Sequence record: OR992643
Strand: one strand, 5' to 3'
Length of the DNA: 24,264 nt
Source of the DNA: Escherichia phage EP-M-A
Position 1 is the first letter of the stretch. Every line of letters begins with the position of its first letter. The notes beneath the pieces were generated by a model. It saw nothing but the letters and a program-made list of their open reading frames with translations. It was not told the origin of the DNA and searched no databases. A program made the position numbers and the translations under genes. Of this stretch, positions 1 through 22,903 are shown piece after piece.

Positions 1-87
1 GATTTCACCCATTACATCTACGACTTGTAACTGCTGCCGTAGTTGGTTAATCAGGTACTCGAATACTTCGTTTTTGTTACTCATCAT
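1..87 (-). CDS. hypothetical protein, 5' part only (runs off the left edge); begins MMSNKNEVFEYLINQLRQQLQVVDVMGEI
   Basis: ATG-ATG at 87..82 on the minus strand with a GGAGG Shine-Dalgarno (plus 94-98) upstream; frame open to the window edge; start overlaps the stop of the upstream gene by 11 nt. Confidence 0.45.
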   Translation of the reverse strand, partial: MMSNKNEVFEYLINQLRQQLQVVDVMGEI

Positions 88-295
88 CCGGTTCCTCCCC
101 GTTATATTCTTCAAACACAAAGGCATCGTCTGCGGATAACGCCCATCGACCATACCCGGTGTAATAGACGTCAAGTTCAGTGCCGTTGTCGTCTATTATG
201 TAGCATCGACTCTCGTCGCTGTCTTCTTTGATGTGGTACAGGTCGTTTTTAGCCAGCGCCCAGTAACCATCGTAGGATTTGCATTCCAGGAACAT
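77..295 (-). CDS. hypothetical small acidic protein, 72 aa
   Basis: ORF from the track; AGGAG Shine-Dalgarno just upstream of the ATG at 295; sits downstream of minus-strand promoter A. Confidence 0.6.
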   Translation of the reverse strand: MFLECKSYDGYWALAKNDLYHIKEDSDESRCYIIDDNGTELDVYYTGYGRWALSADDAFVFEEYNGEEPDDE

Positions 296-325
296 CTCTG
301 TCTCTCCTATCGTCTGTGTAAATGA

Positions 326-354
326 ATAGTAGTCTATTCTATCCCAGTGTGCAA
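326..354 (-). promoter_or_regulatory. sigma70-like promoter (-35 TTGCAC, 17 nt spacer, -10 TACTAT) containing the palindrome GAATAG-N4-CTATTC
   Basis: Read on the minus strand: TTGCAC = plus 349-354, TACTAT = plus 326-331; palindrome at 324-339; about 25 nt upstream of the ATG at 295. Confidence 0.55.
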
Positions 355-1019: not shown

Positions 1020-1319
1020 TTACTTAACACGGCAACCTCCCTCAGAGTCGTCGGCACGAGCATCATGATTCGATGCCGTTCGTATAAACAGCTTACCTTT
1101 GCGCTGTAACAAATCCATTGTCACGGCGCCAGCCCCTGACTTATTAGGGCGACGCAGCCGGCTAAAATTCCATACCCGGGCCTTTGTTACATCCCGGGCG
1201 TTACATACCCACAAAGCACCATTTTCTCTTAGTTCCAGTAAATCAGAAATGTTGAAATTATTTACTGGGATAAACCCGCTAATGAACTGGCGTTCGCATT
1301 GAGGTAATTCTTCCATCAC
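1020..1319 (-). CDS. hypothetical protein, 99 aa
   Basis: ORF from the track; ATGA start/stop overlap with the upstream gene 1316..1501; purine-rich GGGGTGA upstream of the start. Confidence 0.55.
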   Translation of the reverse strand: MMEELPQCERQFISGFIPVNNFNISDLLELRENGALWVCNARDVTKARVWNFSRLRRPNKSGAGAVTMDLLQRKGKLFIRTASNHDARADDSEGGCRVK

Positions 1320-1501
1320 TTCACCCCTTTGAATTTAAAATTGTTGCCGATGAGTTTTATCTCGTCCCCGAAGCACCACTTACCGAAACGCTGGTTAGGT
1401 GTACGGATGTAGTACATCCCGTTAACCTTATTTGAAATTCGTTCGATAGCACCGTAATAACCGTAATCGTTTACTTTAACCAACTGACCCTTCTTAAACA
1501 T
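1316..1501 (-). CDS. hypothetical protein, 61 aa
   Basis: ORF from the track; GAGGAG Shine-Dalgarno 9 nt upstream of the ATG at 1501; first gene downstream of minus-strand promoter B. Confidence 0.6.
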   Translation of the reverse strand: MFKKGQLVKVNDYGYYGAIERISNKVNGMYYIRTPNQRFGKWCFGDEIKLIGNNFKFKGVK

Positions 1502-1536
1502 AACCCCTCGCTCCTCTGTCTCGTTTCGATAAGTGA

Positions 1537-1565
1537 ATAGTAACCTATTATGTTGGGGTGTGCAA
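1537..1565 (-). promoter_or_regulatory. sigma70-like promoter (-35 TTGCAC, 17 nt spacer, -10 TACTAT) with palindrome GAATAG-taac-CTATTA at 1535-1550
   Basis: Same TTGCAC-N17-TACTATTCA architecture as the promoter at 326-354; TTGCAC = plus 1560-1565, TACTAT = plus 1537-1542; drives the leftward small-gene operon. Confidence 0.55.
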
Positions 1566-1935: not shown

Positions 1936-1964
1936 TTGATTTCCCATTATTCGCAATGTATACT
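1936..1964 (+). promoter_or_regulatory. sigma70-like promoter (-35 TTGATT, 17 nt spacer, -10 TATACT) for the rightward operon
   Basis: Hexamers and spacing read directly; about 30 nt upstream of the ATG at 1997; lacks the GAATAG palindrome. Confidence 0.45.
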
Positions 1965-1996
1965 TGGTTCCGTTAACTGATAATGAGGGGTTGAGA

Positions 1997-2167
1997 ATGA
2001 CGCAGAATGAAGTAGCTGAGCGTATCGGGGTTACTCGTCGCACGCTGAATAACTGGTTAAAGAGCGGGAAGTTCCCGGATTGTTGTATTCGCATTATGGG
2101 CCGCCGGCAGCCAGGTACGTTTGACCGGGAGAAAGTGGAAGCGTGGATTAAGGAGAACGTGAAATGA
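1997..2167 (+). CDS. small HTH DNA-binding protein (AlpA/excisionase-like fold), 56 aa
   Basis: MTQNEVAERIGVTRRTLNNWLKSGKFP is a typical helix-turn-helix; GAGGGG Shine-Dalgarno 8 nt upstream of the ATG at 1997. The track ORF starts at a TTG at 1964, judged less likely. Confidence 0.6.
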   Translation: MTQNEVAERIGVTRRTLNNWLKSGKFPDCCIRIMGRRQPGTFDREKVEAWIKENVK

Positions 2168-4708: not shown

Positions 4709-4728
4709 AAAGGGGCGTTAAGCCCCTT
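4709..4728. terminator. bidirectional hairpin AAGGGGC-gttaa-GCCCCTT between convergent genes
   Basis: Inverted repeat read directly between the primase-helicase stop (4700) and the XRE regulator stop (4718). Confidence 0.5.
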
Positions 4729-4933
4729 CACCGAACGCCAGCCACTTGGCGTCTACTTGCAGCACTTCCGCCAGTTTAAACAGCGTTGCCGGGCGGACAT
4801 CCTGAGTTACCCCAAGGGCCAGCTGGTTAATTGCACCCTGGGAAACGCCGGTTAGTACAGCCAGACGGCGCTGGGAGATTCCAAGTTCTTTGCGGCGTTG
4901 TTCTACACGGATGCCTAGTTCAGATGGTTGCAT
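4718..4933 (-). CDS. XRE-family (Cro/CI-type) helix-turn-helix transcriptional regulator, 71 aa
   Basis: LGISQRRLAVLTGVSQGAINQLALG is a canonical HTH_3 motif; GGAG Shine-Dalgarno upstream of the ATG at 4933; divergent from the gene at 5058 with two palindromic operator-like sites between them. Confidence 0.8.
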   Translation of the reverse strand: MQPSELGIRVEQRRKELGISQRRLAVLTGVSQGAINQLALGVTQDVRPATLFKLAEVLQVDAKWLAFGEGA

Positions 4934-4962: not shown

Positions 4963-4978
4963 GAATAGTACCATATTA
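4963..4978. promoter_or_regulatory. operator-like palindrome GAATAG-tacc-ATATTA overlapping the -10 region (TACTAT on the minus strand) of the XRE gene
   Basis: Imperfect copy of the GAATAG-N4-CTATTA palindrome that recurs in about seven promoters in this window. Confidence 0.5.
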
Positions 4979-4997: not shown

Positions 4998-5026
4998 TTG
5001 ACATGTGAATAGTTCGCTATTATAGT
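4998..5026 (+). promoter_or_regulatory. near-consensus sigma70 promoter (-35 TTGACA, 17 nt spacer, -10 TATAGT) with palindrome GAATAG-ttcg-CTATTA in the spacer
   Basis: TTGACA 4998-5003, TATAGT 5021-5026; about 30 nt upstream of the GAGAGGAGAG Shine-Dalgarno and ATG at 5058. Confidence 0.7.
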
Positions 5027-5057
5027 TAGCCCATACCAAACGAGAGGAGAGAAACAA

Positions 5058-5528: not shown

Positions 5529-5535
5529 CTATCCC

Positions 5536-5556
5536 GCGGCCTTCGGGCCGCTTTAA
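5536..5556 (+). terminator. intrinsic terminator-like hairpin GCGGCC-UUCG-GGCCGC followed by TTTAA
   Basis: UUCG tetraloop hairpin and short T tract immediately after the stop at 5528. Confidence 0.6.
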
Positions 5557-5571
5557 CTGAGGGTCGGAATT

Positions 5572-5844
5572 ATGATTTACCAACTATACCGCGCCGTTGA
5601 CAGGCGGGATAACACAGAGGCGCTATGGTTATTGCGCGCGCCGTCCGGTGCACACCAGATGGAAGAGATGGCGTACTTAGGCAAAGTGCCACGGCCTAAA
5701 GACATAGGCCGCCACGTGTCGCATATTAAGCGTACGACTTTCGCCAAGCCTGACTTTTATGTCTTCGAGTCGATGTATGGCTGGGCTATGCATTGCCATC
5801 ACAAGACGCGACATTTAATTGACCAGTGGGAGAACAGGGTATGA
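5572..5844 (+). CDS. hypothetical protein, 90 aa
   Basis: GAGGG Shine-Dalgarno 8 nt upstream; ATGA overlap with the downstream nuclease gene; its initiation region repeats the one in front of the DNA polymerase. Confidence 0.6.
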   Translation: MIYQLYRAVDRRDNTEALWLLRAPSGAHQMEEMAYLGKVPRPKDIGRHVSHIKRTTFAKPDFYVFESMYGWAMHCHHKTRHLIDQWENRV

Positions 5845-7082
5845 TTCTTAAAGAACGCGGCGGCAATAATGATGTACATGCCTTACTGTCACCGTCAGGC
5901 GCTAAAAAGTGGCTGAGTTGTGCTGCATCACTGGCCTGTGAAAAAGATATTCCTAACACATCTGGTAAAGCTGCCGTTACAGGGACCGCGTGCCACACTA
6001 TAGCTGAGGTCCATCTCAACGCTTATATTCGCGGAACTGCGCTACCGTTAGAGCGTGAAGTCGGTGCTTATGTTCTGGATGAGGGCAAAGGCCAGATTAA
6101 GGCGCTAATCAGTCCTATGAAAGGCGCTGTACTGATTACGGCGGACATGATTGAGCAGGTGCGCAAGTACACCGACTACTGCAAACCGATTATCGACGTG
6201 GCTACTTTCGCTAAGCTGGAGATGCGCGTAAATCTTACTGAGGTATTGCATCCGGGGTATGAAGGCGTTGAGACGTTCGGAACCGCAGACCTTGTTGCCG
6301 TTCAGGAACTGACAAACACCGACGAGCACATGCTCATTATCGGCGACCTTAAAACAGGGCGGCATCGTGTCGAAGCGAAAGAAAACAAGCAGCTTATGCT
6401 TTACGCTCTCGGTGTTTATCGCAGACTTAAGAGACGTTATAACATAACAACCGTTCGTCTGGTTATCTTCCAGCCGTACGCTGGCGGTGCGTCGGAGTGG
6501 GACATCCCGGTTGAAGGGCTGGAACTGTTCGCCAAGTTCGCACAGAAACGCGCGCTGTTAGCGCTAGATGCGTACTTCCGCGGTAAGAAGAACCTGAAAG
6601 CGTCGGACTTTAAGCCGTCGGTAGATGGTTGTCAGTGGTGTAGGTTCTCTGAACAATGCGCCGCGCGTACAAAGACGGTTAATTCTGTACTGGCGGAAGA
6701 ACTTGAAGACGACTTTGCACTAGAACTAACGCCGGAGCAACTCGTCGCCGAGTATGAGAAGTTGCCGTTGTTGCGCCAGCACATCGATAAGGTCGAGAAA
6801 GCGATGGCGGCCGTGTTGCATTCCGGTAAGAAAGTGCCAGGGTACAAACTGGTTGAAGGCCGCCCGGGTAATCGTGCGTGGAAAGACGCGGAGAAAGTAA
6901 CAGAACTCTACGGCGACAAGCTGACTAAAGAAGTGCTCATGACGCCTACCGAAGCTGTTAAAGTCATACCGGAAGAAGAACTGAAAGACTTCATTACCCG
7001 TAAGCCGGGCGCACCATGTGTCGCAACGGCAGACGACAAACGTCCTGAGTGGAATCAGGTAACAGAGGAGGATTTAGAATGA
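5841..7082 (+). CDS. PD-(D/E)XK exonuclease of the Cas4/RecB-nuclease type with a four-cysteine cluster (probable recombination exonuclease)
   Basis: N-terminal Cys (WLSCAAS); nuclease core TADLVAV...IGDLKTG and QLMLYAL; C-terminal CQWCRFSEQC (C-x2-C-x5-C); ends VTEEDLE. Start set at ATG 5841. Confidence 0.8.
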   Translation: MILKERGGNNDVHALLSPSGAKKWLSCAASLACEKDIPNTSGKAAVTGTACHTIAEVHLNAYIRGTALPLEREVGAYVLDEGKGQIKALISPMKGAVLITADMIEQVRKYTDYCKPIIDVATFAKLEMRVNLTEVLHPGYEGVETFGTADLVAVQELTNTDEHMLIIGDLKTGRHRVEAKENKQLMLYALGVYRRLKRRYNITTVRLVIFQPYAGGASEWDIPVEGLELFAKFAQKRALLALDAYFRGKKNLKASDFKPSVDGCQWCRFSEQCAARTKTVNSVLAEELEDDFALELTPEQLVAEYEKLPLLRQHIDKVEKAMAAVLHSGKKVPGYKLVEGRPGNRAWKDAEKVTELYGDKLTKEVLMTPTEAVKVIPEEELKDFITRKPGAPCVATADDKRPEWNQVTEEDLE

Positions 7083-7279
7083 TTCGTAAAATGTTCAGAG
7101 TAATTGGCGGTTTTGTGGCGTTTTTAACTTATCACGCGCTAATATTGCCGCTTGTCATAATGCTTCTTCCGTTTTTCGCGTATACCGCGTTCAAGTGCAG
7201 GAAAATAGAGCTAGAGGATTTGGTGTACGCCAAAGAAGTTGAGTGGGTTCGTAATTTGAAGTGGCCTAACTATACCTAA
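7079..7279 (+). CDS. small hydrophobic (probable membrane) protein, 66 aa
   Basis: The GAGGAGGA formed by the EEDLE codons of the upstream gene serves as its Shine-Dalgarno; ATGA overlap; hydrophobic stretch FVAFLTYHALILPLVIMLLPFFAY. Confidence 0.55.
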   Translation: MIRKMFRVIGGFVAFLTYHALILPLVIMLLPFFAYTAFKCRKIELEDLVYAKEVEWVRNLKWPNYT

Positions 7280-7284
7280 CTATA
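7265..7284. repeat. perfect tandem direct repeat CCTAACTATA x2, overlapping the palindrome AACTATAGTT (7278-7287)
   Basis: Read directly; about 25 bp upstream of the -35 of the SSB promoter; contains a further TATAGT hexamer. Confidence 0.5.
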
Positions 7285-7310
7285 GTTGAGAAAATAACTG
7301 GCTGGAAGGG

Positions 7311-7339
7311 TTGACACCTGAATAGTTAGCTATTATAGT
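7311..7339 (+). promoter_or_regulatory. consensus-like sigma70 promoter (-35 TTGACA, 17 nt spacer, -10 TATAGT) with palindrome GAATAG-ttag-CTATTA in the spacer
   Basis: TTGACA 7311-7316, TATAGT 7334-7339; upstream of the SSB gene. Confidence 0.7.
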
Positions 7340-7406
7340 TCTAATAACTGGCCGGGCAGTTCCCGGAGTAAACTTTGAAATATAAACTGAAAAGCGAGAA
7401 ATCAAG

Positions 7407-8033
7407 ATGGGACTGAAATTAAATCTGCGTAAAGTAAACACTGCATGGGTTAACGTATTTGAACGCGAAAAAGACCGTGAAAACGATGATGGTTCAATCA
7501 CTAAAGGCCAGTACAGCGCAACTATTATCCTGCCGTCTGACCATGCCCAAATCGATGCACTCTACGACAATGTTTACGCTGTAGTTGAAGAAGCGTTAGG
7601 TGCAGCCGCCGCCGAGAAGTGGATGAAGTCCAACTATGGCGAAGGTAAGCACATGGATAAATGCGCGATTAAAGACATTGCTGAGCGCGACAATCCGTTT
7701 GAAGACTTCCCGGAAGGCTTCTACTTCAAAGCGAAGGCACAGAAACAGCCACTGATTGTAACCTCTAAAAAAGGTGAGACCCAGGTAGAGCAGGACTTCA
7801 ACGTAGACGGTGAACAGATTGAAGGCGAACAGGTTTACAGTGGCTGCGTTGCTAACGTAAGCGTCGAAATCTGGTTCAGCCAGAAATATAAAGTTCTCGG
7901 TGTTAACCTGCTGGCGATTAAGTACGTCGGGGAAGGTAAAGCGTTTGGTGGCTCTAAAGTCGCCGCAAGCGTCGATGACCTGGAAGACGACGAAGAAGAT
8001 GGATCACCGCGCCGCGAACGTCGCCGTCGCTAA
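7407..8033 (+). CDS. single-stranded DNA-binding protein (T7 gp2.5-like), 208 aa
   Basis: Resembles gp2.5-type SSBs (C-terminal ...KAFGG... followed by the acidic tail VDDLEDDEEDG), here extended by a basic RRERRRR end; hairpin terminator downstream. Confidence 0.65.
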   Translation: MGLKLNLRKVNTAWVNVFEREKDRENDDGSITKGQYSATIILPSDHAQIDALYDNVYAVVEEALGAAAAEKWMKSNYGEGKHMDKCAIKDIAERDNPFEDFPEGFYFKAKAQKQPLIVTSKKGETQVEQDFNVDGEQIEGEQVYSGCVANVSVEIWFSQKYKVLGVNLLAIKYVGEGKAFGGSKVAASVDDLEDDEEDGSPRRERRRR

Positions 8034-8052
8034 TATCTGAATCAATTTAACT

Positions 8053-8076
8053 AAGGCCCTTCATTGGGCCTTTTTA
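8053..8076 (+). terminator. intrinsic terminator AAGGCCC-ttcatt-GGGCCTT plus TTTTT
   Basis: GC-rich hairpin and T tract immediately downstream of the SSB stop. Confidence 0.65.
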
Positions 8077-8092
8077 CTAAGGGTCGAAAATA

Positions 8093-10273
8093 ATGAGTTA
8101 CCTGTTCTTAGACTTTGAAACATTCTCCGAAGCCGATTTGAAGAAAGTCGGTTCTTACGCTTACGCCGAGCATCCGTCAACCGAAGTGCTTATCTGTACA
8201 TACTCTTTTGACGACGAGCCAGTACGTGTATGGGATTGCACTGACGGCAGCGACATGCCAGGAGATTTGCACCGTGCTCTGCGCCGTCTGGTGAAGCCAA
8301 ACAGCCGCATTAAGATGGTGTGGCACAACGGTGGACTTTTCGATAGGCCCATCATGAAACACTGCTGGGGCTTTGATATTCCCGTAAGCAACACCATTGA
8401 TACGATGATTTGGGCGTTTCGTCACGCGCTGCCGGGTTCACTTGATGCGCTGTGTGAAGTGCTCGGCGTGTCTGCTGACAATGCAAAAGATAAACGCGGC
8501 AAGGCGCTGATTCAGCGTTTCTCTAAACCGACACCGAAGAATTACAAAATCCGCCGCTACACCGCAGAAACACACCCGGACGAGTGGGCGCTGTTCATCA
8601 AGTACGCCGTGAGCGACATCACTGCGATGCGTGAAGTCTTCCATAAGCTGCCGCGTTGGGGTAACTCTGAGTTCGAAGACCGTGTACTGGAACTGGACCA
8701 GTTAATCAACGACCGCGGGTTTAAGGTTGACGTTGCACTGGCGGAAGCCGCTATTGAAGCCGTGGAGAAACACAAAGCGCAGTTACAGGAGGAAGCCCAA
8801 CGCAAATACGGCGGCTCGCTTACTGGTAAGGACTTTCTGCCGATTCTTCGTGAACTCTCCCCTGCACACCGCATACACAACGCACAGAAGTCGACGCTTA
8901 ACGACCTGCTGGCGGACGATGATTTACCGGACGACGCACGCACAATTATCGAAATGCGCCTCGGGGCCGCGTCCACCGCGTCAACGAAATATAACCCGCT
9001 GCTGTTGGGCCGCTCGTCTGACGACCGACGCCGTGGTTGCATCCAGTACGGTGGGGCCAAGCGTACGTTACGGTTTGCAGGTAAAGGCTTCCAGCCGCAG
9101 AACCTGGCGCGCGGGTACTATCACGATGATGAATTGGATAAAGGCATTTCAGCGTTACTTAAAGGCCGGGCACACCGCCGTTTTGATGTAGCCAAGCTAA
9201 CGGCATCGACGGTACGTAGCTGCATCATATCGGAAGTGGGGCATAAGTTTGTCGTCGCCGATTACTCAAACGTCGAAGGCCGTGGTTTAGCGTGGCTGGC
9301 AGGCGAAGAAACCGCGCTAGATACGTTCCGCGCCGGACTGGATATTTACTGCGTAACCGCAGGTAAGATGTTCGGCATGGACCCAGATTACATTAAGAAA
9401 GAACGTAAAGATTTGCGCCAGATTGGTAAGGCCTGCGAACTTGGGCTTGGCTATGCGGGCGGTGTCGGCGCATTCGTACAGTTCGCCAAGAACCTTGGCC
9501 TTGACCTGGTTGATATGGCAAAAACAATGGATGGGACTTTCCCCGACCACATCTGGGCTGCTACCGCACGTGGATATGAGTGGGCGCGTATTCAGGAAGC
9601 CAAGCGACCACCACGTCCAGGTGAAAAGGATGACCGACCATCATATATTCTTGATAAGAAAGTGTGGCGTACCTGTGACGCTATCAAGCGCATGTGGCGC
9701 GAGTCTCACCCGGAAACAGTAGCTTTCTGGCGAGATATTGAAGATGCAGCTATGGCGGCTATCCGCAACCCAGGTAAAGAGTTCACCGCAGGGCCGCGGG
9801 GCGTTAAGTTTTCGCGTAACGTAGAAACAGACACCAACGGCAACAAAGTCGCGGGCTGGTGGTTGCGCATGACGTTGCCGTCGGGCCGCGTTATGTCTTA
9901 CCCGGGCGTTGGTTTAAGTGTATCAAAAGAGACAGACGAAGACGGGAAGGTGTCTACTAACGTGCGCATCAAGTACCAGGGCGAAAACCAGTTAACCAGG
10001 CAGTGGGGCTTCCAGTATACCTACTCCGGTAAACTGGTGGAAAACTGCACTCAGGCGCTGTGCCGTGATTTGCTGGCTAATGCCCTGCTTAACGTCGAAG
10101 CAAACGGCTACCCAATTGTGCTTCATGTTCACGATGAGATTATCTGCGAGACGCCAGATTTACCGGAATACAATGTCGCAGAGCTTGAACGGTTGATGTG
10201 CGAATTACCAGAGTGGGCAGAGGGGTTCCCTCTTGTAGCGGAAGGTGCGGAGATGAAGCGCTATGCTAAGTAA
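8093..10273 (+). CDS. family A DNA polymerase with N-terminal 3'-5' proofreading exonuclease domain, 726 aa
   Basis: Exo I motif FLDFETFS; Pol A motif A VVADYSNVEGRGLAWLAG; motif B RQIGKACELGLGYAGG; motif C VLHVHDEIICE. Confidence 0.9.
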   Translation: MSYLFLDFETFSEADLKKVGSYAYAEHPSTEVLICTYSFDDEPVRVWDCTDGSDMPGDLHRALRRLVKPNSRIKMVWHNGGLFDRPIMKHCWGFDIPVSNTIDTMIWAFRHALPGSLDALCEVLGVSADNAKDKRGKALIQRFSKPTPKNYKIRRYTAETHPDEWALFIKYAVSDITAMREVFHKLPRWGNSEFEDRVLELDQLINDRGFKVDVALAEAAIEAVEKHKAQLQEEAQRKYGGSLTGKDFLPILRELSPAHRIHNAQKSTLNDLLADDDLPDDARTIIEMRLGAASTASTKYNPLLLGRSSDDRRRGCIQYGGAKRTLRFAGKGFQPQNLARGYYHDDELDKGISALLKGRAHRRFDVAKLTASTVRSCIISEVGHKFVVADYSNVEGRGLAWLAGEETALDTFRAGLDIYCVTAGKMFGMDPDYIKKERKDLRQIGKACELGLGYAGGVGAFVQFAKNLGLDLVDMAKTMDGTFPDHIWAATARGYEWARIQEAKRPPRPGEKDDRPSYILDKKVWRTCDAIKRMWRESHPETVAFWRDIEDAAMAAIRNPGKEFTAGPRGVKFSRNVETDTNGNKVAGWWLRMTLPSGRVMSYPGVGLSVSKETDEDGKVSTNVRIKYQGENQLTRQWGFQYTYSGKLVENCTQALCRDLLANALLNVEANGYPIVLHVHDEIICETPDLPEYNVAELERLMCELPEWAEGFPLVAEGAEMKRYAK

Positions 10274-10331
10274 ACTGATTATTGCGGTACTGGCGGGATT
10301 CGCCGCCGGTGTCTACTGTCACGAGGGGTAA
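10263..10331 (+). CDS. candidate micro-ORF, 22 aa, hydrophobic (MLSKLIIAVLAGFAAGVYCHEG)
   Basis: Hand translation; overlaps the polymerase stop; its terminal GAGGGG doubles as the Shine-Dalgarno for the next micro-ORF. Speculative. Confidence 0.25.
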   Translation: MLSKLIIAVLAGFAAGVYCHEG

Positions 10332-10337
10332 TACGGC

Positions 10338-10394
10338 ATGATGGTAGCCGTATTGGGTATGTTCATCGCAATTTATCTGTGGGTGCTGGAATGA
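10338..10394 (+). CDS. candidate micro-ORF, 18 aa, hydrophobic (MMVAVLGMFIAIYLWVLE)
   Basis: GAGGGG 9 nt upstream; ATGA overlap with the next micro-ORF. Speculative. Confidence 0.3.
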   Translation: MMVAVLGMFIAIYLWVLE

Positions 10395-10480
10395 AAATTT
10401 ACTGGTTTTATGAGGAAGACTGCCGAATCTGTCCGCGCTGCGGTATTGAGCATACGAAACGTGAGGGGTGTGTATTATGA
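10391..10480 (+). CDS. candidate micro-ORF, 29 aa, Cys-rich zinc-ribbon-like peptide (MKIYWFYEEDCRICPRCGIEHTKREGCVL)
   Basis: C-x2-C-x2-C pattern plus a further Cys; ATGA overlaps on both sides (previous micro-ORF and HNH gene). Speculative. Confidence 0.3.
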   Translation: MKIYWFYEEDCRICPRCGIEHTKREGCVL

Positions 10481-10974
10481 AAGCACCAAGTGACGATATA
10501 AAAGATTTTCTGTCATACGACCCAGATACCGGGATATTTAAATGGGTCAAGCACAGATGCCAGACCGCGAAACCCGGAGATGTTGTTACATACAAGGACC
10601 GTAAAGGGTACATATTGTTAGGATGGAATAGGGTGTATTACCGCGCACACAGGCTGGCGTGGTGGTGGGTGTACGGAGAGATGCCAACTAAGCAAATAGA
10701 CCATATTAACGGCATACGGGACGATAATCGGATTTGTAACCTACGGCTTGCGGATGAATTTCAACAGAACCATAACCGCAAGACCCCAGTTACAAACACC
10801 AGCGGGGTGAAAGGGGTTAACTGGAGTAAGCACCATAATGCTTGGTGTGCCCGCGTTGGTTTTAAAGGTACACGCCACCAGATTGGGTATTTCCAGAACC
10901 TAAATGAAGCAGACGAATCGCTGAGAGAATTTAGGGCAAAACTGCACGGAGAGTTTTGCAACCATGGCGACTAA
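10477..10974 (+). CDS. HNH homing endonuclease with C-terminal AP2-type DNA-binding domain
   Basis: HNH_3-like HRLAWWWVYGEMPTKQIDHINGIRDDNRICNLR; AP2-like GVKGVNWSKHHNAWCARVGFKGTRHQIGYF. Start at ATG 10477 with a GAGGGG Shine-Dalgarno. Confidence 0.8.
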   Translation: MKAPSDDIKDFLSYDPDTGIFKWVKHRCQTAKPGDVVTYKDRKGYILLGWNRVYYRAHRLAWWWVYGEMPTKQIDHINGIRDDNRICNLRLADEFQQNHNRKTPVTNTSGVKGVNWSKHHNAWCARVGFKGTRHQIGYFQNLNEADESLREFRAKLHGEFCNHGD

Positions 10975-11251
10975 AGAGGGCCGCGTACAGAAATACGCAA
11001 AAGAGCAATTCGAGGCCATTGGCGGCCTCGTTCGTAAACTTTCGTACGAGGGGCGCTCCGGCGCCCCTGACCTGCTGGTAATTCTCCCCGGCGGCATCGT
11101 CTGGTTCGTCGAGGTTAAGAAAGACGAAAACACGAAGCCTGACCCGCACCAGTTACGTGAGCATGAGCGGATGCGTAAACGCGGTGCAAATGTTTTTGTC
11201 GTTGGTTCGTTTAAACAGGTTGACGACCTAATAGCGAACTATTATAGTTAG
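10964..11251 (+). CDS. VRR-NUC domain nuclease (PD-(D/E)XK fold), 95 aa
   Basis: Core GAPDLLVILPGGIVWFVEVKKD (D...E-V-K) is typical of VRR-NUC; start overlaps the HNH stop. Confidence 0.7.
   Translation: MATKEGRVQKYAKEQFEAIGGLVRKLSYEGRSGAPDLLVILPGGIVWFVEVKKDENTKPDPHQLREHERMRKRGANVFVVGSFKQVDDLIANYYS
11220..11248 (+). promoter_or_regulatory. sigma70-like promoter (-35 TTGACG, 17 nt spacer, -10 TATAGT) with palindrome AATAG-cgaa-CTATT, embedded in the last codons of the VRR-NUC gene
   Basis: TTGACG 11220-11225, TATAGT 11243-11248; same architecture as the promoters at 4998 and 7311; followed by the leader motif ACACCAACAAT shared with the 22870 region. Confidence 0.6.
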
Positions 11252-11281
11252 CCATACACCAACAATATAAGGAATTGAGAA

Positions 11282-11473
11282 ATGAAACACGAATATGACC
11301 GCAAGCCAGCACGTGACATCGTACCTGGCGACATGATTTTCAACGTTAAGACCCGCCAGCCTGTTGCCGTTGATACTGTGTTCGTCGAGTCAAACGGTAA
11401 ACTGGTTATCGAAGATGTAACCGGTAACGTTACGGCGTTCGGGCGTAAAGAGCTAGTTTTGGTGGCAAAATGA
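11282..11473 (+). CDS. hypothetical protein, 63 aa
   Basis: AAGGA Shine-Dalgarno upstream; ATGA overlap with the downstream methyltransferase gene. Confidence 0.6.
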   Translation: MKHEYDRKPARDIVPGDMIFNVKTRQPVAVDTVFVESNGKLVIEDVTGNVTAFGRKELVLVAK

Positions 11474-12399
11474 ACTATTACAACGAGTGGGATAAAGGCG
11501 CAACCGCGTGGCTGCGCGAGTTGATAAAACAGGGCCACATACCTTTTGGAGTTGTAGATGAAAGAAGCATTACTGAAGTTAGACCAGAAGACCTTGACGG
11601 GTTCACCCAGTGTCATTTTTTCGCTGGTATCGGCGGCTGGTCTCTCGCGCTCAGACTTGCGGGAGTTTCGGAAGATACGCCTCTCTGGACGGGAAGCCCG
11701 CCTTGCCAACCGTTTAGCGCGGCAGGAAAACAACTCGGACAGTTCGACCCGAGACACCTCGCTCCAGTCTTCCTTGACCTCATCAGCGAGTGCCGTCCTC
11801 CAGTCATCTTTGGGGAACAAGTTGCGCCAGCAATTGCAAAATCGTGGATGTGCGATTTACAAACTCACCTGGAAGGAGAAGACTACGCCGTCGGGTTTGC
11901 CGTACTCCCAGCTTGTAGCGTCGGCGCACCGCACAAACGCGACAGGCTGTTCTTCGGCGCGCACAGACTGGCCCACACCGGCGGTATCACTGATAACAAA
12001 CGACGTGAACATGCGCAGCACAGACGGCAGGACGAAACCGAACAAACTGGGATGGGCCGCTGCGATGGCGGCATGGGTGACGCCGACCGCGAACGATTAC
12101 AGAGGGAGCGGAGAGACAGTTATTCGCAAGGACGGGAAGGACAGGACATTCAGCAGGCTGGACTACTCAACGGAGCAGGGACTGAAAATATCGCGGCCAA
12201 TCCGCATCACGGCTTCTGGTCAGATACTGACTGGCTCGGATGCCGGGATGGAAAATTCAGGCCAGTTGAACCCGGCACATTCCCGCTGGCTAATGGGGTA
12301 CCCGCCAGAGTGGGACGATTGCGCGGTTATGGCAATGCCATCGTCCCGCAAGTAGCCGCTGAATTTATAAAGGCATTCATGGGGGCGGTAAATGAGTAA
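11470..12399 (+). CDS. DNA (cytosine-5)-methyltransferase; the long ORF in this frame carries motifs I, IV, VI, VIII and X, but the TRD and motif IX appear to lie in the +1 frame (ORF 11558..12355)
   Basis: This frame: HFFAGIGG (I), SPPCQPFSAAGKQ (IV), FGEQV (VI), GAPHKRDRLFFGA (VIII), GYGNAIVPQVAAEFIKA (X). The +1 frame: RPIRITASG and LNPAHSRWLMGYPPEW (motif IX-like). Confidence 0.75.
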   Translation: MNYYNEWDKGATAWLRELIKQGHIPFGVVDERSITEVRPEDLDGFTQCHFFAGIGGWSLALRLAGVSEDTPLWTGSPPCQPFSAAGKQLGQFDPRHLAPVFLDLISECRPPVIFGEQVAPAIAKSWMCDLQTHLEGEDYAVGFAVLPACSVGAPHKRDRLFFGAHRLAHTGGITDNKRREHAQHRRQDETEQTGMGRCDGGMGDADRERLQRERRDSYSQGREGQDIQQAGLLNGAGTENIAANPHHGFWSDTDWLGCRDGKFRPVEPGTFPLANGVPARVGRLRGYGNAIVPQVAAEFIKAFMGAVNE

Positions 12400-13816
12400 G
12401 TTTCAAAGGCGCGAGTACCAGAAGCTCATGACTTCGTTCATGCTGCAACACCCGCGCTGTAATATCTGGTGCGGAATGGGGGGAGGTAAAACCTCCTCCA
12501 CTATGTGGGTGCTCAACCGCCTGTTCCGCAACGGGCAGCTTACGGAAGAGGACCGCGTGTTAATCCTTGCCCCGTTACGTGTTGCGTCCGGTACGTGGCC
12601 CGCTGAACAAGAGAAATGGCAATTCCCTTGTCTGCGTGTCGTAGATGCAACTGGTTCGGAGAAGCGCCGCATCGCGGCGCTGGAGTCAGATGCTAACGTG
12701 GTGTGCACTAACTACGAAGTTATCGAATGGCTGATTGACTACTACGGCAAAGACGACTGGCCTTTCACGGTTATCGTTGCCGATGAAAGCACGAAGCTAA
12801 AATCTTTCCGCAGCTGTTCGGGTGGGAGCAAGCGAGCGAAGGCGCTCAGCAAAGTGGCATTCGGTAAAGTTAAGCGTTTCATCAACCTGACTGGTACACC
12901 ATCACCTAACGGCCTCAAGGACTTGTGGGGCCAGAACTGGTTTATCGACGCAGGAGAGCGCCTCGGTTCATCGTACACGGCATTCACCGACCGCTGGTTT
13001 AACTCAGTGCAGAAAGGTAAGTCGGCTATGGCGCGTGAATATCACGCCCGCCCGGGTGCGGATACTGAGATTCATCAGAAGATGAAAGACATTAGTCTCA
13101 CGATTGACGCTGCCGAGTGGTTTGGTTGTGAAGCGCCGATTATTGTACCGGTTGAAATCGACCTGCCTAAGAAAGCGCGTCAGGCGTACATCGATATGGA
13201 GGAGAAGTTATTCGCGGAACTGGAGAGCGGAGAAGTTGAAGCCGCTAACGCGGCGGCGAAGACGTCGAAGTGCCTCCAGATTGCATCCGGCGCCGTGTAT
13301 GTGTCGGGGCCAGACGGCGAAGCAACCAAAGACTGGGAGAAAGTGCACGACACGAAACTGGATGCGCTGGGGTCGATTGTTGAGGAGTTACAGGGTGCAC
13401 CGCTGCTTGTGGCTTATCAGTTCAAGCACGAACTGGAACGCATCCTGAAACGTTTCCCGCAGGCACAGGCGTTTGCAAAAGGCGCTAAGGGTAATAAGCA
13501 GATGGAAGCGTGGAACCGTGGCGAAATCGAAATCCTATGCGTACATCCTGCGTCAGCCGGGCATGGTTTGAATTTACAGGACGGCGGTCACCATCTGGCG
13601 TTTATTTCGCAGGGCTGGAACCTTGAGCACTATTTGCAGGTCGTTGAGCGCATCGGCCCGGTACGCCAGAAACAGGCGGGCCACGAGCGCCCGGTGTTCC
13701 TCTACCATATCGTAGCTAAAGACACGCTGGATGAGGTTGTTGCTGCGCGTACAGACGAGAAGAAATCTGTACAGGAAGAGTTGCTTAACTACATGAAGAG
13801 ACGAGGTAAGAAATGA
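12392..13816 (+). CDS. SNF2/Rad54-family DNA-dependent ATPase (helicase-like), 474 aa
   Basis: Motif I GMGGGKT; motif II VIVADESTKLK; motif III LTGTPSPNGLKDLW; C-terminal helicase motifs HPASAGHGLNLQDGGHHLAF; overlaps the methyltransferase stop. Confidence 0.85.
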   Translation: MSKFQRREYQKLMTSFMLQHPRCNIWCGMGGGKTSSTMWVLNRLFRNGQLTEEDRVLILAPLRVASGTWPAEQEKWQFPCLRVVDATGSEKRRIAALESDANVVCTNYEVIEWLIDYYGKDDWPFTVIVADESTKLKSFRSCSGGSKRAKALSKVAFGKVKRFINLTGTPSPNGLKDLWGQNWFIDAGERLGSSYTAFTDRWFNSVQKGKSAMAREYHARPGADTEIHQKMKDISLTIDAAEWFGCEAPIIVPVEIDLPKKARQAYIDMEEKLFAELESGEVEAANAAAKTSKCLQIASGAVYVSGPDGEATKDWEKVHDTKLDALGSIVEELQGAPLLVAYQFKHELERILKRFPQAQAFAKGAKGNKQMEAWNRGEIEILCVHPASAGHGLNLQDGGHHLAFISQGWNLEHYLQVVERIGPVRQKQAGHERPVFLYHIVAKDTLDEVVAARTDEKKSVQEELLNYMKRRGKK

Positions 13817-14016
13817 GTAATGAGTTCGATATTGACGCTTGCAACGAATTGATAAAAGACGCTCTTAACGCCCGCGAGCAACTTCTTGCTATGCAGTTAA
13901 AGCGAGAAATAAAACGTATCAAGGAACTCGAGGAGGAGGTTCTACGACTACGCCAGCAAAGAGACGCCGCTAATGCGCAACTGGCGTTTGTACTTGAGAA
14001 GTTATCAGAAGAGTAA
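13813..14016 (+). CDS. hypothetical coiled-coil protein, 67 aa
   Basis: ATGA overlap with the SNF2 gene; heptad-like charged sequence; followed by a bidirectional terminator. Confidence 0.55.
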   Translation: MSNEFDIDACNELIKDALNAREQLLAMQLKREIKRIKELEEEVLRLRQQRDAANAQLAFVLEKLSEE

Positions 14017-14020
14017 AGAA

Positions 14021-14040
14021 AAGGCCCCGTTTGGGGCCTT
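14021..14040. terminator. bidirectional terminator hairpin AAGGCCCC-gttt-GGGGCCTT between convergent operons
   Basis: Perfect 8 bp stem; T-rich on the minus-strand side (downstream of the tailspike gene). Confidence 0.65.
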
Positions 14041-14044
14041 CAAC

Positions 14045-15757
14045 CTATGGAAGCATTATCCCACCGTTTGAGGTCCCGTAAGTGCCCTGACTATTATTGG
14101 TTGAATATGAGTTCCACGCCTGCATTATCCCACCATTTACTGCGTAAAAACCCCATCCGCCATTACTGTAGGCGTTGGACCTATCTGCGTCTGCGGTACT
14201 AAGCCCATTACCTTCAACCACGCCCCCGTTTAGGGCATAGAAGCCGTGGCCTATATTGTTGTTAGATACACACGCGTGCGCCCACATACTCCCATTGCTA
14301 AGCGCGTAAAACCCAGCTACCTGATTTCCGAGGGCGTGCGACCGTTCGCAGTTTATAAACCCCCCAACTTCGGCACAGAAACCGAAACCAAGATTTTCAC
14401 CGTTTGTGTGCGCACAGTCCTGTGCGGTGCATCCGTAAGCATTAATCGTCGCAGCATATGCATGGTATCCGCAGTCCCCTGCCTGAACGGCGGTAGTCCC
14501 CTGACAGTTGATAGTGCCGCCGTACAACGCCTGGAATCCGTAATATATTCTTTCCGTACGAATGGCGGTTCCTGTTGATACCTTAGAACCTGACCCTATA
14601 ACACGAATAGCGGCTCCGTAACTTTGATTAGCCCATACACCCTTAGATGACCATCCTCCTACACCGAAAATATGGAAGCCGTTTATAACCGCGGCCCCAA
14701 ACCCATCTTCAAAAATAAAACCACACCCGTTGTCAGTAGTGTCTACTTGTAATTGACAGTCCAGAGGGTTTGACTCATTACCTATAATTTGCAAGGCGTG
14801 CCAGTCTTTTACCCTGGAACGAATGTTTTTAACCTGGTACACCCCATTATCGACCTGAATGCGAAACCACGCGTTATTAGCTGCACGTTTATAACTGAAG
14901 AAGTCAAGGGCCGCCTGGATAGTAGGGAACATTTCAGGAACCGACACAAGATACACAGCATTATCAACCGTGCGCGACGCAGGGAAGTTAACCCCGTTAA
15001 ACGTTATCACACCCGGGCCGTCGGATTTGGCTAACTGTGATATCGTCGATGCGGTAGTAGTCTTATATAAGCCGTGAGGGAAATAGTACACACCGGAGGC
15101 AAACGCGGCATGGAGTGCCGCAGTATCGTCGGTTACGCCGTCGCCTATTGCACCAAAATCTTTTACGGTTGGTGTGTCATTATTTTTTGAGTGCTGAGTG
15201 CGGATTACGGTGTTGTTAAAGTCGCCCTGGACTTTTATGTTGCTATCATCAACCAGGAGGCCACTGTTTGCAGATGCCAGTGATGTCTTATACGCTTCAA
15301 AATCGGAATTAAGTTCGGCCAGGTCTGACTCCACATTAGTCAGGTCACTGCGTAATGTAGGGTCCATAGTTAGCTTCCACGCACCAGCGGCGATGCCCCC
15401 GGTGGTAGCAGGAGTAGACGCAGCGGGGACCACTTTCGGCAAAGCGCCCTCCCAATTATACCACGCACCATCTCCGCCAGAACCTAAAGGCCATAACACC
15501 GCCTTATTACGGTCAGTCACGCTAAGAGTACCTCCAGTGTAAAAATCGAACGCCGCCGGTTCAAATCCTACATCTCTCAAAATGGCTGGCATTGTTTTCT
15601 GCACTTGCCCAGTAACAGCGTTGGTTGCGTGATCAATATCAGTACCAGTTGATACGCCGCCTGATTTGCCTGTGATAACCTCAGCCTCGAAAAGCTGGTG
15701 CTTCTTCGCAATCTGTAAATCCGCCAGGCTTAAAACGTCACCGCATCCGCTTGACAT
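14045..15757 (-). CDS. tailspike / tail fibre protein with pectate-lyase-type beta-helix domain and C-terminal Gly-rich repeats (candidate depolymerase), 570 aa
   Basis: KDFGAIGDGVTDDTAALHAAF is the signature of right-handed beta-helix glycanases; C-terminal GFYA(L/V)NGG repeated three times; AGAGGA Shine-Dalgarno; last gene of the tail operon. Confidence 0.75.
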   Translation of the reverse strand: MSSGCGDVLSLADLQIAKKHQLFEAEVITGKSGGVSTGTDIDHATNAVTGQVQKTMPAILRDVGFEPAAFDFYTGGTLSVTDRNKAVLWPLGSGGDGAWYNWEGALPKVVPAASTPATTGGIAAGAWKLTMDPTLRSDLTNVESDLAELNSDFEAYKTSLASANSGLLVDDSNIKVQGDFNNTVIRTQHSKNNDTPTVKDFGAIGDGVTDDTAALHAAFASGVYYFPHGLYKTTTASTISQLAKSDGPGVITFNGVNFPASRTVDNAVYLVSVPEMFPTIQAALDFFSYKRAANNAWFRIQVDNGVYQVKNIRSRVKDWHALQIIGNESNPLDCQLQVDTTDNGCGFIFEDGFGAAVINGFHIFGVGGWSSKGVWANQSYGAAIRVIGSGSKVSTGTAIRTERIYYGFQALYGGTINCQGTTAVQAGDCGYHAYAATINAYGCTAQDCAHTNGENLGFGFCAEVGGFINCERSHALGNQVAGFYALSNGSMWAHACVSNNNIGHGFYALNGGVVEGNGLSTADADRSNAYSNGGWGFYAVNGGIMQAWNSYSTNNSQGTYGTSNGGIMLP

Positions 15758-22857: not shown

Positions 22858-22875
22858 TATAATAGGGTACTATTC
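22858..22875. promoter_or_regulatory. divergent control region: consensus -10 TATAAT (22858-22863) overlapping palindrome AATAG-ggta-CTATTC (22861-22875)
   Basis: Palindrome copy between the leftward tail operon and the rightward Imm gene; leader motif ACACCAACAAT as after the 11220 promoter. Orientation and -35 are ambiguous. Confidence 0.45.
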
Positions 22876-22903
22876 ACTTACACCAACAATGAAGGGGTTT
22901 AAA

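What the first reader, a model, noticed from the sequence alone, without database searches (positions are those of the whole stretch)
11218..11251. Promoter and operator embedded in the last eleven codons of the VRR-NUC gene
The codons for ...QVDDLIANYYS* simultaneously encode TTGACG-N17-TATAGT and the AATAG-cgaa-CTATT operator that drives the methyltransferase/SNF2 operon. This dual coding-and-regulatory use constrains both the protein C-terminus and the promoter.
Basis: seen in the sequence. Interest (0 to 1): 0.45.

Follow-up and report, generated by a model that had tools for sequence, protein, structure and literature searches.

The report
Phage promoter-operator inside a gene's end
The last codons of a phage nuclease gene also carry a conserved, probably repressor-controlled promoter for the next genes; this is real but ordinary for compact phage genomes, and the same promoter is already annotated in a related phage.

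Summary
The window is a Kagunavirus (Guernseyvirinae), 100% identical to Escherichia phage EP-B-K_E2. In detail: TTGACG (11220-11225), a 17-nt spacer and TATAGT (11243-11248) lie in the last codons of the 95-aa VRR-NUC ORF. The dyad AATAG-CGAA-CTATT (11230-11243) sits in the spacer.

The hexamers alone are no better than chance. But the same 29-nt architecture heads two other operon starts on the same strand (4998, 7311). The dyad occurs 6-7 times in the window against 0.5 expected.

In 46 distinct relatives every copy keeps a 10-11/12 promoter match. Seven of 8 third-codon positions in the motif are invariant, against 19 of 85 in the rest of the gene. The dyad centre and spacer vary, with amino-acid changes, and the stop codon moves by 0 to 22 codons.

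The -35 and left arm lie on the family-conserved V-D-x-L-I residues. The right arm and -10 lie in a lineage-specific tail.

Best reading: an internal host-RNAP promoter for the 63-aa/methyltransferase/SNF2 operon, gated by a phage helix-turn-helix dimer, most likely the 434-Cro-like protein at 4718-4933. No activity or binding data exist.

The orthologous promoter is already annotated in phage Jersey, and the repeated motif was already reported, mislabelled. Interest is low to moderate.

The parts
10964..11251 (+). VRR-NUC nuclease ORF (95 aa). Its last 10 sense codons and its stop carry the promoter/operator.
11220..11225 (+). -35 hexamer TTGACG, lying on codons GTT GAC G (Val-Asp). Relatives have TTGACG, TTGACA or TTGATA.
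11229..11244 (.). Dyad T-AATAG-CGAA-CTATT-A, the putative operator, in the spacer and overlapping the -10 by 1-2 nt. The arms are invariant in 43 of 46 relatives; the centre varies.
11243..11248 (+). -10 hexamer TATAGT (TATATT in Jerseyvirus), on codons TAT AGT.
11249..11251 (+). Stop codon TAG of VRR-NUC, in the discriminator region. It is lost or moved in several relatives (ORF extended by 4 to 22 codons).
11254..11256 (+). Predicted transcription start (nominal +1 = 11255; A at 11254 and at 11256). Inferred from the -10 position only.
   Evidence: inference from standard sigma70 geometry
11270..11275 (+). Ribosome-binding site AAGGAA for the 63-aa ORF, invariant in relatives.
11282..14016 (+). 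Downstream operon: 63-aa ORF (11282-11473), C5 DNA methyltransferase (11470-12399), SNF2-type helicase (12392-13816) and a 67-aa ORF (13813-14016). Consecutive ORFs overlap at their ends.
14022..14041 (.). GC-rich hairpin at the convergence with the tail genes. It is the likely end of the operon; its T-run is good only on the minus strand.
4998..5026 (+). Sister promoter TTGACA-tgtg-AATAGTTCGCTATT-ATAGT, ahead of the 5058 operon (DUF2800 nuclease cluster).
7311..7339 (+). Sister promoter TTGACA-cctg-AATAGTTAGCTATT-ATAGT, ahead of the ssDNA-binding protein, DNA polymerase, HNH and VRR-NUC genes.
4964..4977 (.). Dyad copy with 1 mismatch (AATAGTACCATATT), 31 nt upstream of the Cro-like gene start.
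325..338 (.). Dyad copy in the intergenic region upstream of minus-strand ORF 77..295.
1536..1549 (.). Dyad copy in the intergenic region upstream of minus-strand ORF 1316..1501.
22861..22874 (.). Dyad copy in the divergent region between the superinfection-immunity gene (+) and the tail-chaperone gene (-).
4718..4933 (-). 71-aa HTH_3 protein, the first candidate for the dyad-binding repressor. Its best solved relative is phage 434 Cro.
1964..2167 (+). 67-aa HTH_17 (excisionase/MerR-like) protein, the second candidate binder. It is 87% identical to its SETP3 orthologue.

Best explanation
The 3' end of the VRR-NUC gene carries an internal promoter for host sigma70 RNA polymerase: TTGACG, a 17-nt spacer and TATAGT, with a predicted start near 11255. 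It re-initiates transcription of the downstream 63-aa ORF, C5-methyltransferase and SNF2-helicase operon, inside a long rightward replication gene cluster that has no terminator upstream.

It is one of three promoters of identical design in this cluster. Each has a 14-16-bp dyad (AATAG-N4-CTATT) filling the spacer and touching the -10. The same dyad also sits on the core promoters of the other early transcription units.

The dyad is most likely the operator of a phage-encoded helix-turn-helix dimer that blocks RNA polymerase and shuts these promoters off together. The leading candidate is the 71-aa 434-Cro-like protein, encoded divergently from the 4998 promoter with two dyads between them. 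The conserved HTH_17 protein is the alternative.

The -35 and left arm were built on the codons of the family-conserved V-D-x-L-I residues. The right arm and -10 lie in a short, lineage-specific tail (ANYYS) whose sequence is set by the DNA signal, not by the protein.

Shown: the sequence architecture, its repetition, its conservation and the frozen synonymous sites. Inferred: promoter activity, repression, and the identity of the binder.
For: - Architecture is repeated three times at operon starts on one strand.
- The dyad occurs 6-7 times against 0.53 expected. It is the top 5-N4-5 palindrome in two Kagunavirus genomes (8 each) and in SETP3 (5).
- The register relative to the hexamers is identical in three genomes: -35 starts 10 nt before the dyad and -10 starts at +13.
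- All 46 distinct relatives (gene-body nucleotide identity down to 73%) keep 10-11/12 with a 17-nt spacer.
- Third-codon positions inside the motif are invariant at 7 of 8, against 19 of 85 elsewhere (p = 4.5e-4). Non-motif positions in the tail are as variable as third positions elsewhere (mean entropy 0.69 against 0.76 for third positions in the rest of the gene).
- The motif requires the rare codons CTA, ATA and AGT. Multiplying codon frequencies gives about 2e-4 for the observed synonymous choices (my arithmetic).
- Amino acids change at the dyad centre (N/G/S/H/D, A/E) and the stop codon moves.
- Distant homologues and the subfamily member SE1 end in ...VDxL[IV]xELFP* with no dyad and no -10.
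- The orthologous site is annotated as a promoter in phage Jersey and in PVP-SE2.
- The candidate binder matches HTH_3 (E 1e-12) and 434 Cro over its full length (E 1.9e-6), and lies next to two dyads.
- No + strand terminator-like site lies between 7340 and 11220.
Against: - There is no transcription-start, reporter or binding experiment for any Guernseyvirinae phage in the literature I could search. The one RNA-seq study is too coarse.
- The hexamer match by itself is within chance.
- This copy departs from the family consensus TG-AATAGT (here CT-AATAGC), so it may be a weaker operator.
- The Cro-like protein is only 49% identical between Kagunavirus and Jerseyvirus although the dyad arms are the same. 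The HTH_17 protein is 87% identical.
- SE1 has a 39%-identical Cro-like protein with a similar recognition helix but no dyads. Protein-operator co-variation is therefore unproven.
- The relatives are phylogenetically related, so the conservation statistics are not from independent samples.
Confidence: 0.62

Rival explanations
1. The dyad is a positive control or switch element rather than a repressor site. A phage factor bound to it would activate -35-less promoters that read TGAATAGTAnCCTATTAT[AG]TT towards the late (head and tail) modules at the intergenic sites. At the consensus promoters such as 11220 it would only modulate, or would repress. This resembles the phi29 p4 early/late switch or a T4 MotA-type middle promoter.
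For: At sites 1536, 22861 and the two further sites in the head region of the full genome, one strand shows the conserved dyad followed by a TATTAT/TATATT -10-like word and no recognisable -35. Two of these point towards the tail-chaperone and scaffold/capsid modules. PHIRE picked exactly this oriented word as a repeated 'phage promoter'. From memory, unverified: a -35-less promoter of the related phage MB78 was reported to need a phage factor.
Against: The 11220, 7311 and 4998 promoters have near-consensus hexamers at the optimal 17-nt spacing and need no activator. A protein sitting between -35 and -10 normally blocks RNA polymerase. At site 325 no gene lies in the 'forward' direction. At all the intergenic sites a conserved TTGCAC-17-TACTAT reads towards the adjacent gene on the other strand. 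That explains the conserved flank without invoking activation.
Confidence: 0.15
2. The promoter is real, but the dyad is bound by a host protein or serves only a structural role (spacer shape). There would then be no dedicated phage regulator.
For: The binder is unidentified. E. coli and Salmonella phages share the same arms although their Cro-like proteins are only 49% identical.
Against: The pattern of invariant arms, a free 4-nt centre and all three arm variants falling on the symmetry-related position 2 is typical of a dimeric sequence-specific protein. I know of no E. coli factor with this consensus (from memory only). The dyad is absent from the subfamily member SE1, which infects the same host genus.
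Confidence: 0.1
3. The conserved dyad acts at the RNA level, as a hairpin in read-through mRNA from the 7311 promoter (processing site, stabiliser or attenuator). It would not be a DNA operator.
For: The 46-nt stretch 11215-11260 folds at -11.7 kcal/mol, z = -4.2 against shuffles.
Against: Across 20 relatives only the 6-bp A/U-rich inner stem survives (-2.4 kcal/mol), with no compensatory change, and the three arm variants break pairs. There is no U-tract. The outer stem is specific to this phage. Most other copies of the dyad are intergenic and upstream of transcript starts. No Rfam family matches.
Confidence: 0.04
4. Chance resemblance: ordinary codons that happen to look like a promoter, with no function.
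For: Sites with at least 10/12 are expected about 3 times per window by chance.
Against: The 29-nt composite occurs three times. Synonymous sites are frozen and rare codons are used. The site is conserved across two genera.
Confidence: 0.03

Closest known systems
Annotated promoter inside the VRR-NUC ('Holliday junction resolvase') CDS of Salmonella phage Jersey, NC_021777.1 29238..29266. Also annotated in phage PVP-SE2, NC_073186.1 15036..15084.
   Same: Orthologous position and architecture: the last codons of the same gene, ahead of the same 63-aa ORF, with TTGATA-17-TATATT around the same dyad.
   Different: Those are consensus-match predictions only. The dyad, the coding overlap and the conservation are not commented on. 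The record matching this window (EP-B-K_E2) carries no annotation, and SETP3 does not annotate the site.
PHIRE motif tgAATAGTa-ccTATTat-T, reported as seven 'phage RNAP promoters' in Kagunavirus fBC-Eco01 (PMC9825357, Table S2)
   Same: It is the same dyad family. Their PP4 (ATAATAGTTTGCTATTATGT) looks like one of the TTGACA-type sites read on the opposite strand.
   Different: They attribute it to a phage RNA polymerase, which these phages do not encode. They describe no link to sigma70 hexamers, operators or coding overlap.
Cro/CI operators of lambdoid phages, especially the 14-bp operators of phage 434 that overlap PR/PRM (textbook knowledge)
   Same: A 14-bp dyad with a free centre sits on the core promoter. 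A 71-aa HTH_3 protein resembling 434 Cro is encoded divergently next to two copies.
   Different: This is a virulent phage with no CI or integrase. The dyads are spread over about 8 promoters genome-wide rather than forming one tripartite OR/OL switch. The half-site sequence is unrelated (AATAG against ACAA). Binding is untested.
Internal promoters lying within upstream coding sequence in compact phage genomes, such as the phiX174 gene B and gene D promoters (from memory)
   Same: A promoter for downstream genes is written in the codons of the upstream gene, so synonymous sites are constrained.
   Different: Here a dyad operator is included. Half of the signal lies in a tail that seems to exist only because the ORF runs into the promoter.

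Membership tests
sigma70 (housekeeping) bacterial promoter | -35 and -10 hexamers close to TTGACA/TATAAT with A at position 2 and T at position 6 of the -10, and a 17 +/- 1 nt spacer | tested here: met
   TTGACG-17-TATAGT scores 10/12. All 46 relatives score 10-11/12 with a 17-nt spacer.
sigma70 (housekeeping) bacterial promoter | Transcript 5' end about 7 nt downstream of the -10; activity with host RNA polymerase | not testable with these tools
   No TSS data were found for this subfamily.
Cro/CI-type (HTH_3) repressor operator | Dyad-symmetric site of about 14-17 bp with conserved arms and a free centre | tested here: met
   In AATAG-N4-CTATT the arms are invariant in 43 of 46 relatives and the centre is variable.
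Cro/CI-type (HTH_3) repressor operator | Overlaps the core promoter it controls; several copies at co-regulated promoters | tested here: met
   There are 6-7 copies in the window and 8 per genome, each inside the spacer or -10 of a promoter-like site.
Cro/CI-type (HTH_3) repressor operator | Cognate HTH protein encoded in the element, typically next to its operators | tested here: met
   A 71-aa HTH_3 protein (434 Cro E 1.9e-6) is divergent from the 4998 promoter, with dyads at 4964 and 5008. The arrangement is conserved in SETP3 and Jersey.
Cro/CI-type (HTH_3) repressor operator | Protein and operator co-vary; specific binding demonstrated | tested here: inconclusive
   The same arms are kept with 49%-identical proteins. 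SE1 has a 39% homologue and no dyads. The HTH_17 protein is better conserved at 87%. Binding cannot be tested here.
Phage-RNA-polymerase promoter (label used for this motif in PMC9825357) | The phage encodes its own RNA polymerase | tested here: not met
   None of the 76 annotated CDS of fEg-Eco06, and none in SETP3 or Jersey, is an RNA polymerase. No RNA polymerase domain appears in the 19 window ORFs scanned against Pfam, which did not include the minus-strand tail-region ORFs.
Dual-use (coding plus regulatory) sequence | Synonymous variation suppressed specifically at the regulatory positions | tested here: met
   7 of 8 third positions in the motif are invariant against 19 of 85 elsewhere, p = 4.5e-4. 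Rare codons CTA, ATA and AGT are used.
Dual-use (coding plus regulatory) sequence | The overlapped residues are themselves under protein-level constraint | tested here: inconclusive
   V-D-x-L-I (-35 and left arm) is conserved in distant homologues. ANYYS (right arm and -10) is not, and the ORF end moves by 0 to 22 codons.
MerR-type activator site | Dyad in an over-long (19-20 bp) spacer | tested here: not met
   The spacer is 17 nt in all copies and all relatives.
Structured RNA element or intrinsic terminator | Conserved stem with compensatory changes; U-tract | tested here: not met
   Consensus fold is -2.4 kcal/mol with 0 compensatory pairs. There is no U-tract and no Rfam hit.

The most novel reading that the evidence does not exclude
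The AATAG-N4-CTATT dyads could form a single genome-wide two-way switch in a strictly virulent phage. One small HTH protein bound at about 8 sites would shut off all early and replication promoters, including the one written into the VRR-NUC codons. At the intergenic sites it would at the same time turn on the -35-less promoters that read in the opposite direction into the head and tail modules.
Probability: 0.15. Interest if true: 0.5.

Novelty: new member of a known kind. Interest (0 to 1): 0.3.

Why it matters
For annotation, Guernseyvirinae genomes (several hundred public Kagunavirus and Jerseyvirus records, many proposed for therapy or biocontrol) can be given a consistent map of early promoters and operators. 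This would correct the 'phage RNA polymerase promoter' label in the literature.

For phage engineering, recoding or truncating the VRR-NUC 3' end, or inserting cargo after it, would destroy the promoter of the methyltransferase/helicase operon. Conversely, the 29-nt cassette is a compact, probably repressible promoter part.

For evolution, it is a clean small example of a regulatory signal dictating codon choice, and even the C-terminal residues of a protein. It does not change any general concept.

Tried and rejected
- Hexamer statistics alone gave no support: 5 sites observed against 3.1 expected.
- The RNA hairpin idea looked good in this one sequence (z = -4.2) but disappears across relatives.
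- The Rfam scan of the window found nothing.
- The phage-RNAP promoter reading from the fBC-Eco01 paper is rejected, because no RNA polymerase gene is present.
- Protein-operator co-variation using SE1 as an outgroup was uninformative. SE1 has no repeated palindrome of any kind and no dyad at its VRR-NUC end, and its Cro-like recognition helix is not clearly different.
- Literature search for TSS or transcript maps turned up only one coarse, non-synchronous RNA-seq study, of K1B4. It does not resolve the VRR-NUC/63-aa boundary.
- The search for MB78 promoter papers found nothing in the held library. The Raoultella phage paper was irrelevant.
- A hairpin in the 5' leader after the 7311 promoter is not significant.

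Full report
**Identity of the window.** Megablast of 10400-14100 gives a 100% match to Escherichia phage EP-B-K_E2 (OR992644.1, an unannotated record). It gives 88-93% matches to many Kagunavirus phages and 525 matching phage records in all, mostly Salmonella Jerseyvirus and E. coli Kagunavirus (taxonomy).

The + strand from about 5058 to 14016 is the replication and recombination cluster. It holds a DUF2800/PD-(D/E)XK nuclease, an Enc34-type ssDNA-binding protein, a family A DNA polymerase, an HNH endonuclease, VRR-NUC, a 63-aa ORF, a C5 methylase and an SNF2 helicase. It ends at a GC-rich hairpin where it meets the tail genes on the other strand.

**The observation.**
- TTGACG at 11220-11225, a 17-nt spacer and TATAGT at 11243-11248.
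- The dyad AATAG-cgaa-CTATT at 11230-11243. It is really T-AATAG-N4-CTATT-A, 11229-11244.
- The VRR-NUC stop TAG at 11249-11251.

The reading frame is GTT GAC GAC CTA ATA GCG AAC TAT TAT AGT TAG.

**Is it more than chance?** The hexamers alone are not. With the usual criteria I find 5 sites of at least 10/12 in the window against 3.1 +/- 1.8 in 200 dinucleotide shuffles (the built-in scan agrees).

The decisive point is that the site is not unique. AATAG-N4-CTATT occurs six times exactly, and once more with one mismatch (325, 1536, 4964, 5008, 7321, 11230, 22861). The expectation is 0.53, and no shuffle reached 7.

The full 29-nt design TTGAC[AG]-N4-AATAG-N4-CTATT-ATAGT occurs three times, at 4998, 7311 and 11220. 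All three are on the + strand and each lies 30-70 nt ahead of a start codon in the same gene cluster. The other two are intergenic. The 11220 copy is the only one in the window written into codons.

**Genome-wide and across genera.** A de novo count of all 5-N-5 palindromes ranks AATAG/N4 first by a wide margin. It has 8 copies in EP-B-K_E2, 8 in fEg-Eco06 and 5 in Salmonella phage SETP3, against at most 3 for any other arm. Jersey has it too.

In all three complete genomes compared (EP-B-K_E2, fEg-Eco06, SETP3), three copies sit in the identical register. The -35 starts 10 nt before the dyad and the -10 starts at dyad position +13, giving 10-11/12. One of the three is always the VRR-NUC copy.

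The remaining copies are in divergent intergenic regions. There a conserved TTGCAC/TTGCGT-17-TACTAT reads towards the adjacent gene, again with the dyad inside the spacer and -10. So the dyad is always on a core promoter.

**Conservation at the VRR-NUC end.** From 48 IMG/VR loci plus the window I obtained 46 distinct sequences. Gene-body nucleotide identity goes down to 73%, with a median of 85%. The pattern follows the promoter/operator, not the codons:
- TTGA of the -35, both arms and TATA of the -10 are invariant or nearly so.
- -35 positions 5-6 take only C/T and G/A, giving TTGACG, TTGACA or TTGATA.
- -10 position 5 takes G/T, giving TATAGT or TATATT.
- The 4-nt spacer after the -35 and the 4-nt dyad centre vary freely, including at first and second codon positions. 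Residue 88 is D/T/A/K, residue 90 is A/E and residue 91 is N/G/S/H/D.

Every one of the 46 sequences keeps 10-11/12 with a 17-nt spacer. Seven of the eight third-codon positions inside the motif are invariant, against 19 of 85 in the rest of the gene (Fisher p = 4.5e-4; Mann-Whitney on entropy p = 5e-4).

The three sequences with an arm change all hit the symmetry-related position 2 of the half-site (ACTAG, AGTAG, CTACT).

The motif forces the rare codons CTA (6.7% of Leu), ATA (17.5% of Ile) and AGT (12% of Ser) in this phage's own usage. Multiplying the usage of the required synonymous choices gives roughly 2e-4 (my arithmetic).

The sequences are related, so these are not independent samples. 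The contrast is internal to one alignment, however.

**What the protein needs.** An alignment with distant VRR-NUC homologues (40-57% identity) shows that V-[DE]-x-L-[ILV] is a conserved C-terminal element. Many homologues stop one or two residues after it. The closer outgroups, including the subfamily member SE1, end in ...QVDALVAELFP.. and have no dyad and no -10.

So the -35 (on Val-Asp) and the left arm (on Leu-Ile) sit on residues the protein needs. That probably explains why this copy reads CT-AATAGC instead of the family's TG-AATAGT, because the Leu codon fixes the T at 11229.

The dyad centre, right arm and -10 encode ANYYS (EHYYI in Jerseyvirus). This tail is found only in the lineage that has the promoter.

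The stop codon right after the -10 is not conserved either. Relatives read on for 4, 6, 9, 10 or 22 more codons, through the 5' leader and even the ribosome-binding site of the next gene.

The simplest history is that the ORF runs into the promoter and the tail is dictated by the DNA signal. 'Dual constraint' is therefore true for the upstream half and one-sided for the downstream half.

**Mechanism.** The hexamers are near consensus at the optimal spacing. Nothing that scores as a + strand terminator lies between the 7311 promoter and 11220. The site is therefore best read as an internal host-RNAP promoter that boosts or uncouples expression of the downstream operon. The cargo of that operon varies between relatives: the methylase is absent in SETP3 and inteins are present in its helicase, yet the promoter stays.

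A 14-16-bp dyad with fixed arms and a free centre, lying between -35 and -10, is what a dimeric helix-turn-helix repressor site looks like. Occupancy there should exclude RNA polymerase.

Two phage candidates exist:
- The 71-aa ORF at 4718-4933 (minus strand). It matches HTH_3 (E 1e-12), and its best solved relative is phage 434 Cro, of the same length (E 1.9e-6). It is transcribed divergently from the 4998 promoter, with two dyads in the 124-bp gap. That arrangement is kept in SETP3 and Jersey.
- The 67-aa HTH_17 protein at 1964-2167. It is far better conserved between the two genera (87% against 49%), which fits the identical arms.

I favour the Cro-like protein roughly 2:1. The SE1 comparison did not settle the question.

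**Alternatives.**
- An RNA hairpin is predicted in this sequence (-11.7 kcal/mol, z = -4.2). Only the weak inner A/U stem is shared by relatives, without any compensatory change.
- The 'phage RNA polymerase promoter' label given to this motif in the fBC-Eco01 paper fails, because no such polymerase is encoded.
- A MerR-type activator site fails on spacer length.
- An activator or switch role at the intergenic copies cannot be excluded. I keep it as the most novel open reading.

**What is already known.** The RefSeq record of the type phage Jersey annotates a promoter at 29238..29266, inside its VRR-NUC CDS (29235..29522), described as 'similar to TTGACA(N15-18)TATAAT with 2 bp mismatch'. PVP-SE2 annotates one at the same place from phiSITE. 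SETP3 annotates the homologue of the 7311 promoter but not this one. The repeated dyad word was listed by PHIRE in fBC-Eco01.

I found no paper that links the dyad to the sigma70 hexamers, calls it an operator or discusses the coding overlap. I also found no TSS or binding data. The only transcriptome study of a Kagunavirus is too coarse.

**Verdict.** It is a conserved promoter-plus-dyad cassette, one of three in the cluster, partly overprinted on the VRR-NUC C-terminus. It is a well-behaved example of a known kind of arrangement in compact phage genomes, and its orthologue is already annotated as a predicted promoter. I score interest at 0.3.

Noticed in passing
window 10468-10974 (+): An HNH_3 endonuclease ORF overlaps the VRR-NUC start by 11 nt. 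Most Kagunavirus relatives lack it: their similarity to the window starts at about 10970, and two tiny ORFs sit there instead. SETP3 has an HNH gene at the same spot. It looks like a mobile homing-type insertion.
   Followed up: partly
window 325-338, 1536-1549, 22861-22874 (and 4964-4977): The intergenic dyad copies carry a second conserved design, TTGCAC/TTGCGT-17-TACTAT, reading towards the adjacent small gene, with the dyad over the spacer and -10. On the opposite strand they read TGAATAGTAnCCTATTAT[AG]TT with no -35. Two such sites face the tail and head modules, so a two-way switch is conceivable.
   Followed up: partly
window about 1550-1964: About 430 nt between the dyad at 1536 and the HTH_17 gene have no annotated gene in the well-annotated relative fEg-Eco06 (L081 44006-44459). 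The window has only a TTG-start 91-aa ORF there, with no Pfam hit. It could be a long leader, an origin or an unannotated gene.
   Followed up: no
window 11256-11266 and 22880-22890; 5038-5049: The leaders downstream of different dyad promoters share short words: ACACCAACAAT at two sites, and AAACGAGAGGAG-like at several others. This suggests a common leader or translation-initiation module copied together with the promoters.
   Followed up: no
window 14022-14041: The GGCCCC-GTTT-GGGGCC hairpin lies between the converging replication and tail operons. It has a proper T-run only for the minus strand, so termination of the + strand operon there may be inefficient.
   Followed up: no
L081 (fEg-Eco06) 4485-4670: A relative annotates a T7 Gp2-like host RNA-polymerase inhibitor (similar to PDB 2LMC chain A), although the phage has no RNA polymerase of its own. 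That is odd for a phage that appears to depend on sigma70 promoters.
   Followed up: no
window 7340-7366: The leader after the 7311 promoter (TCTAATAACTGGCCGGGCAG...) is almost identical in Kagunavirus, SETP3 and Jersey although it is non-coding. Its small hairpin is not thermodynamically significant (z = 0.28).
   Followed up: partly
L084 (Salmonella phage SE1) whole genome: This unclassified Guernseyvirinae member has the same gene order and a 39%-identical Cro-like protein. It has no AATAG dyads and no other repeated palindrome, so the dyad system is confined to the Kagunavirus and Jerseyvirus lineages sampled.
   Followed up: partly
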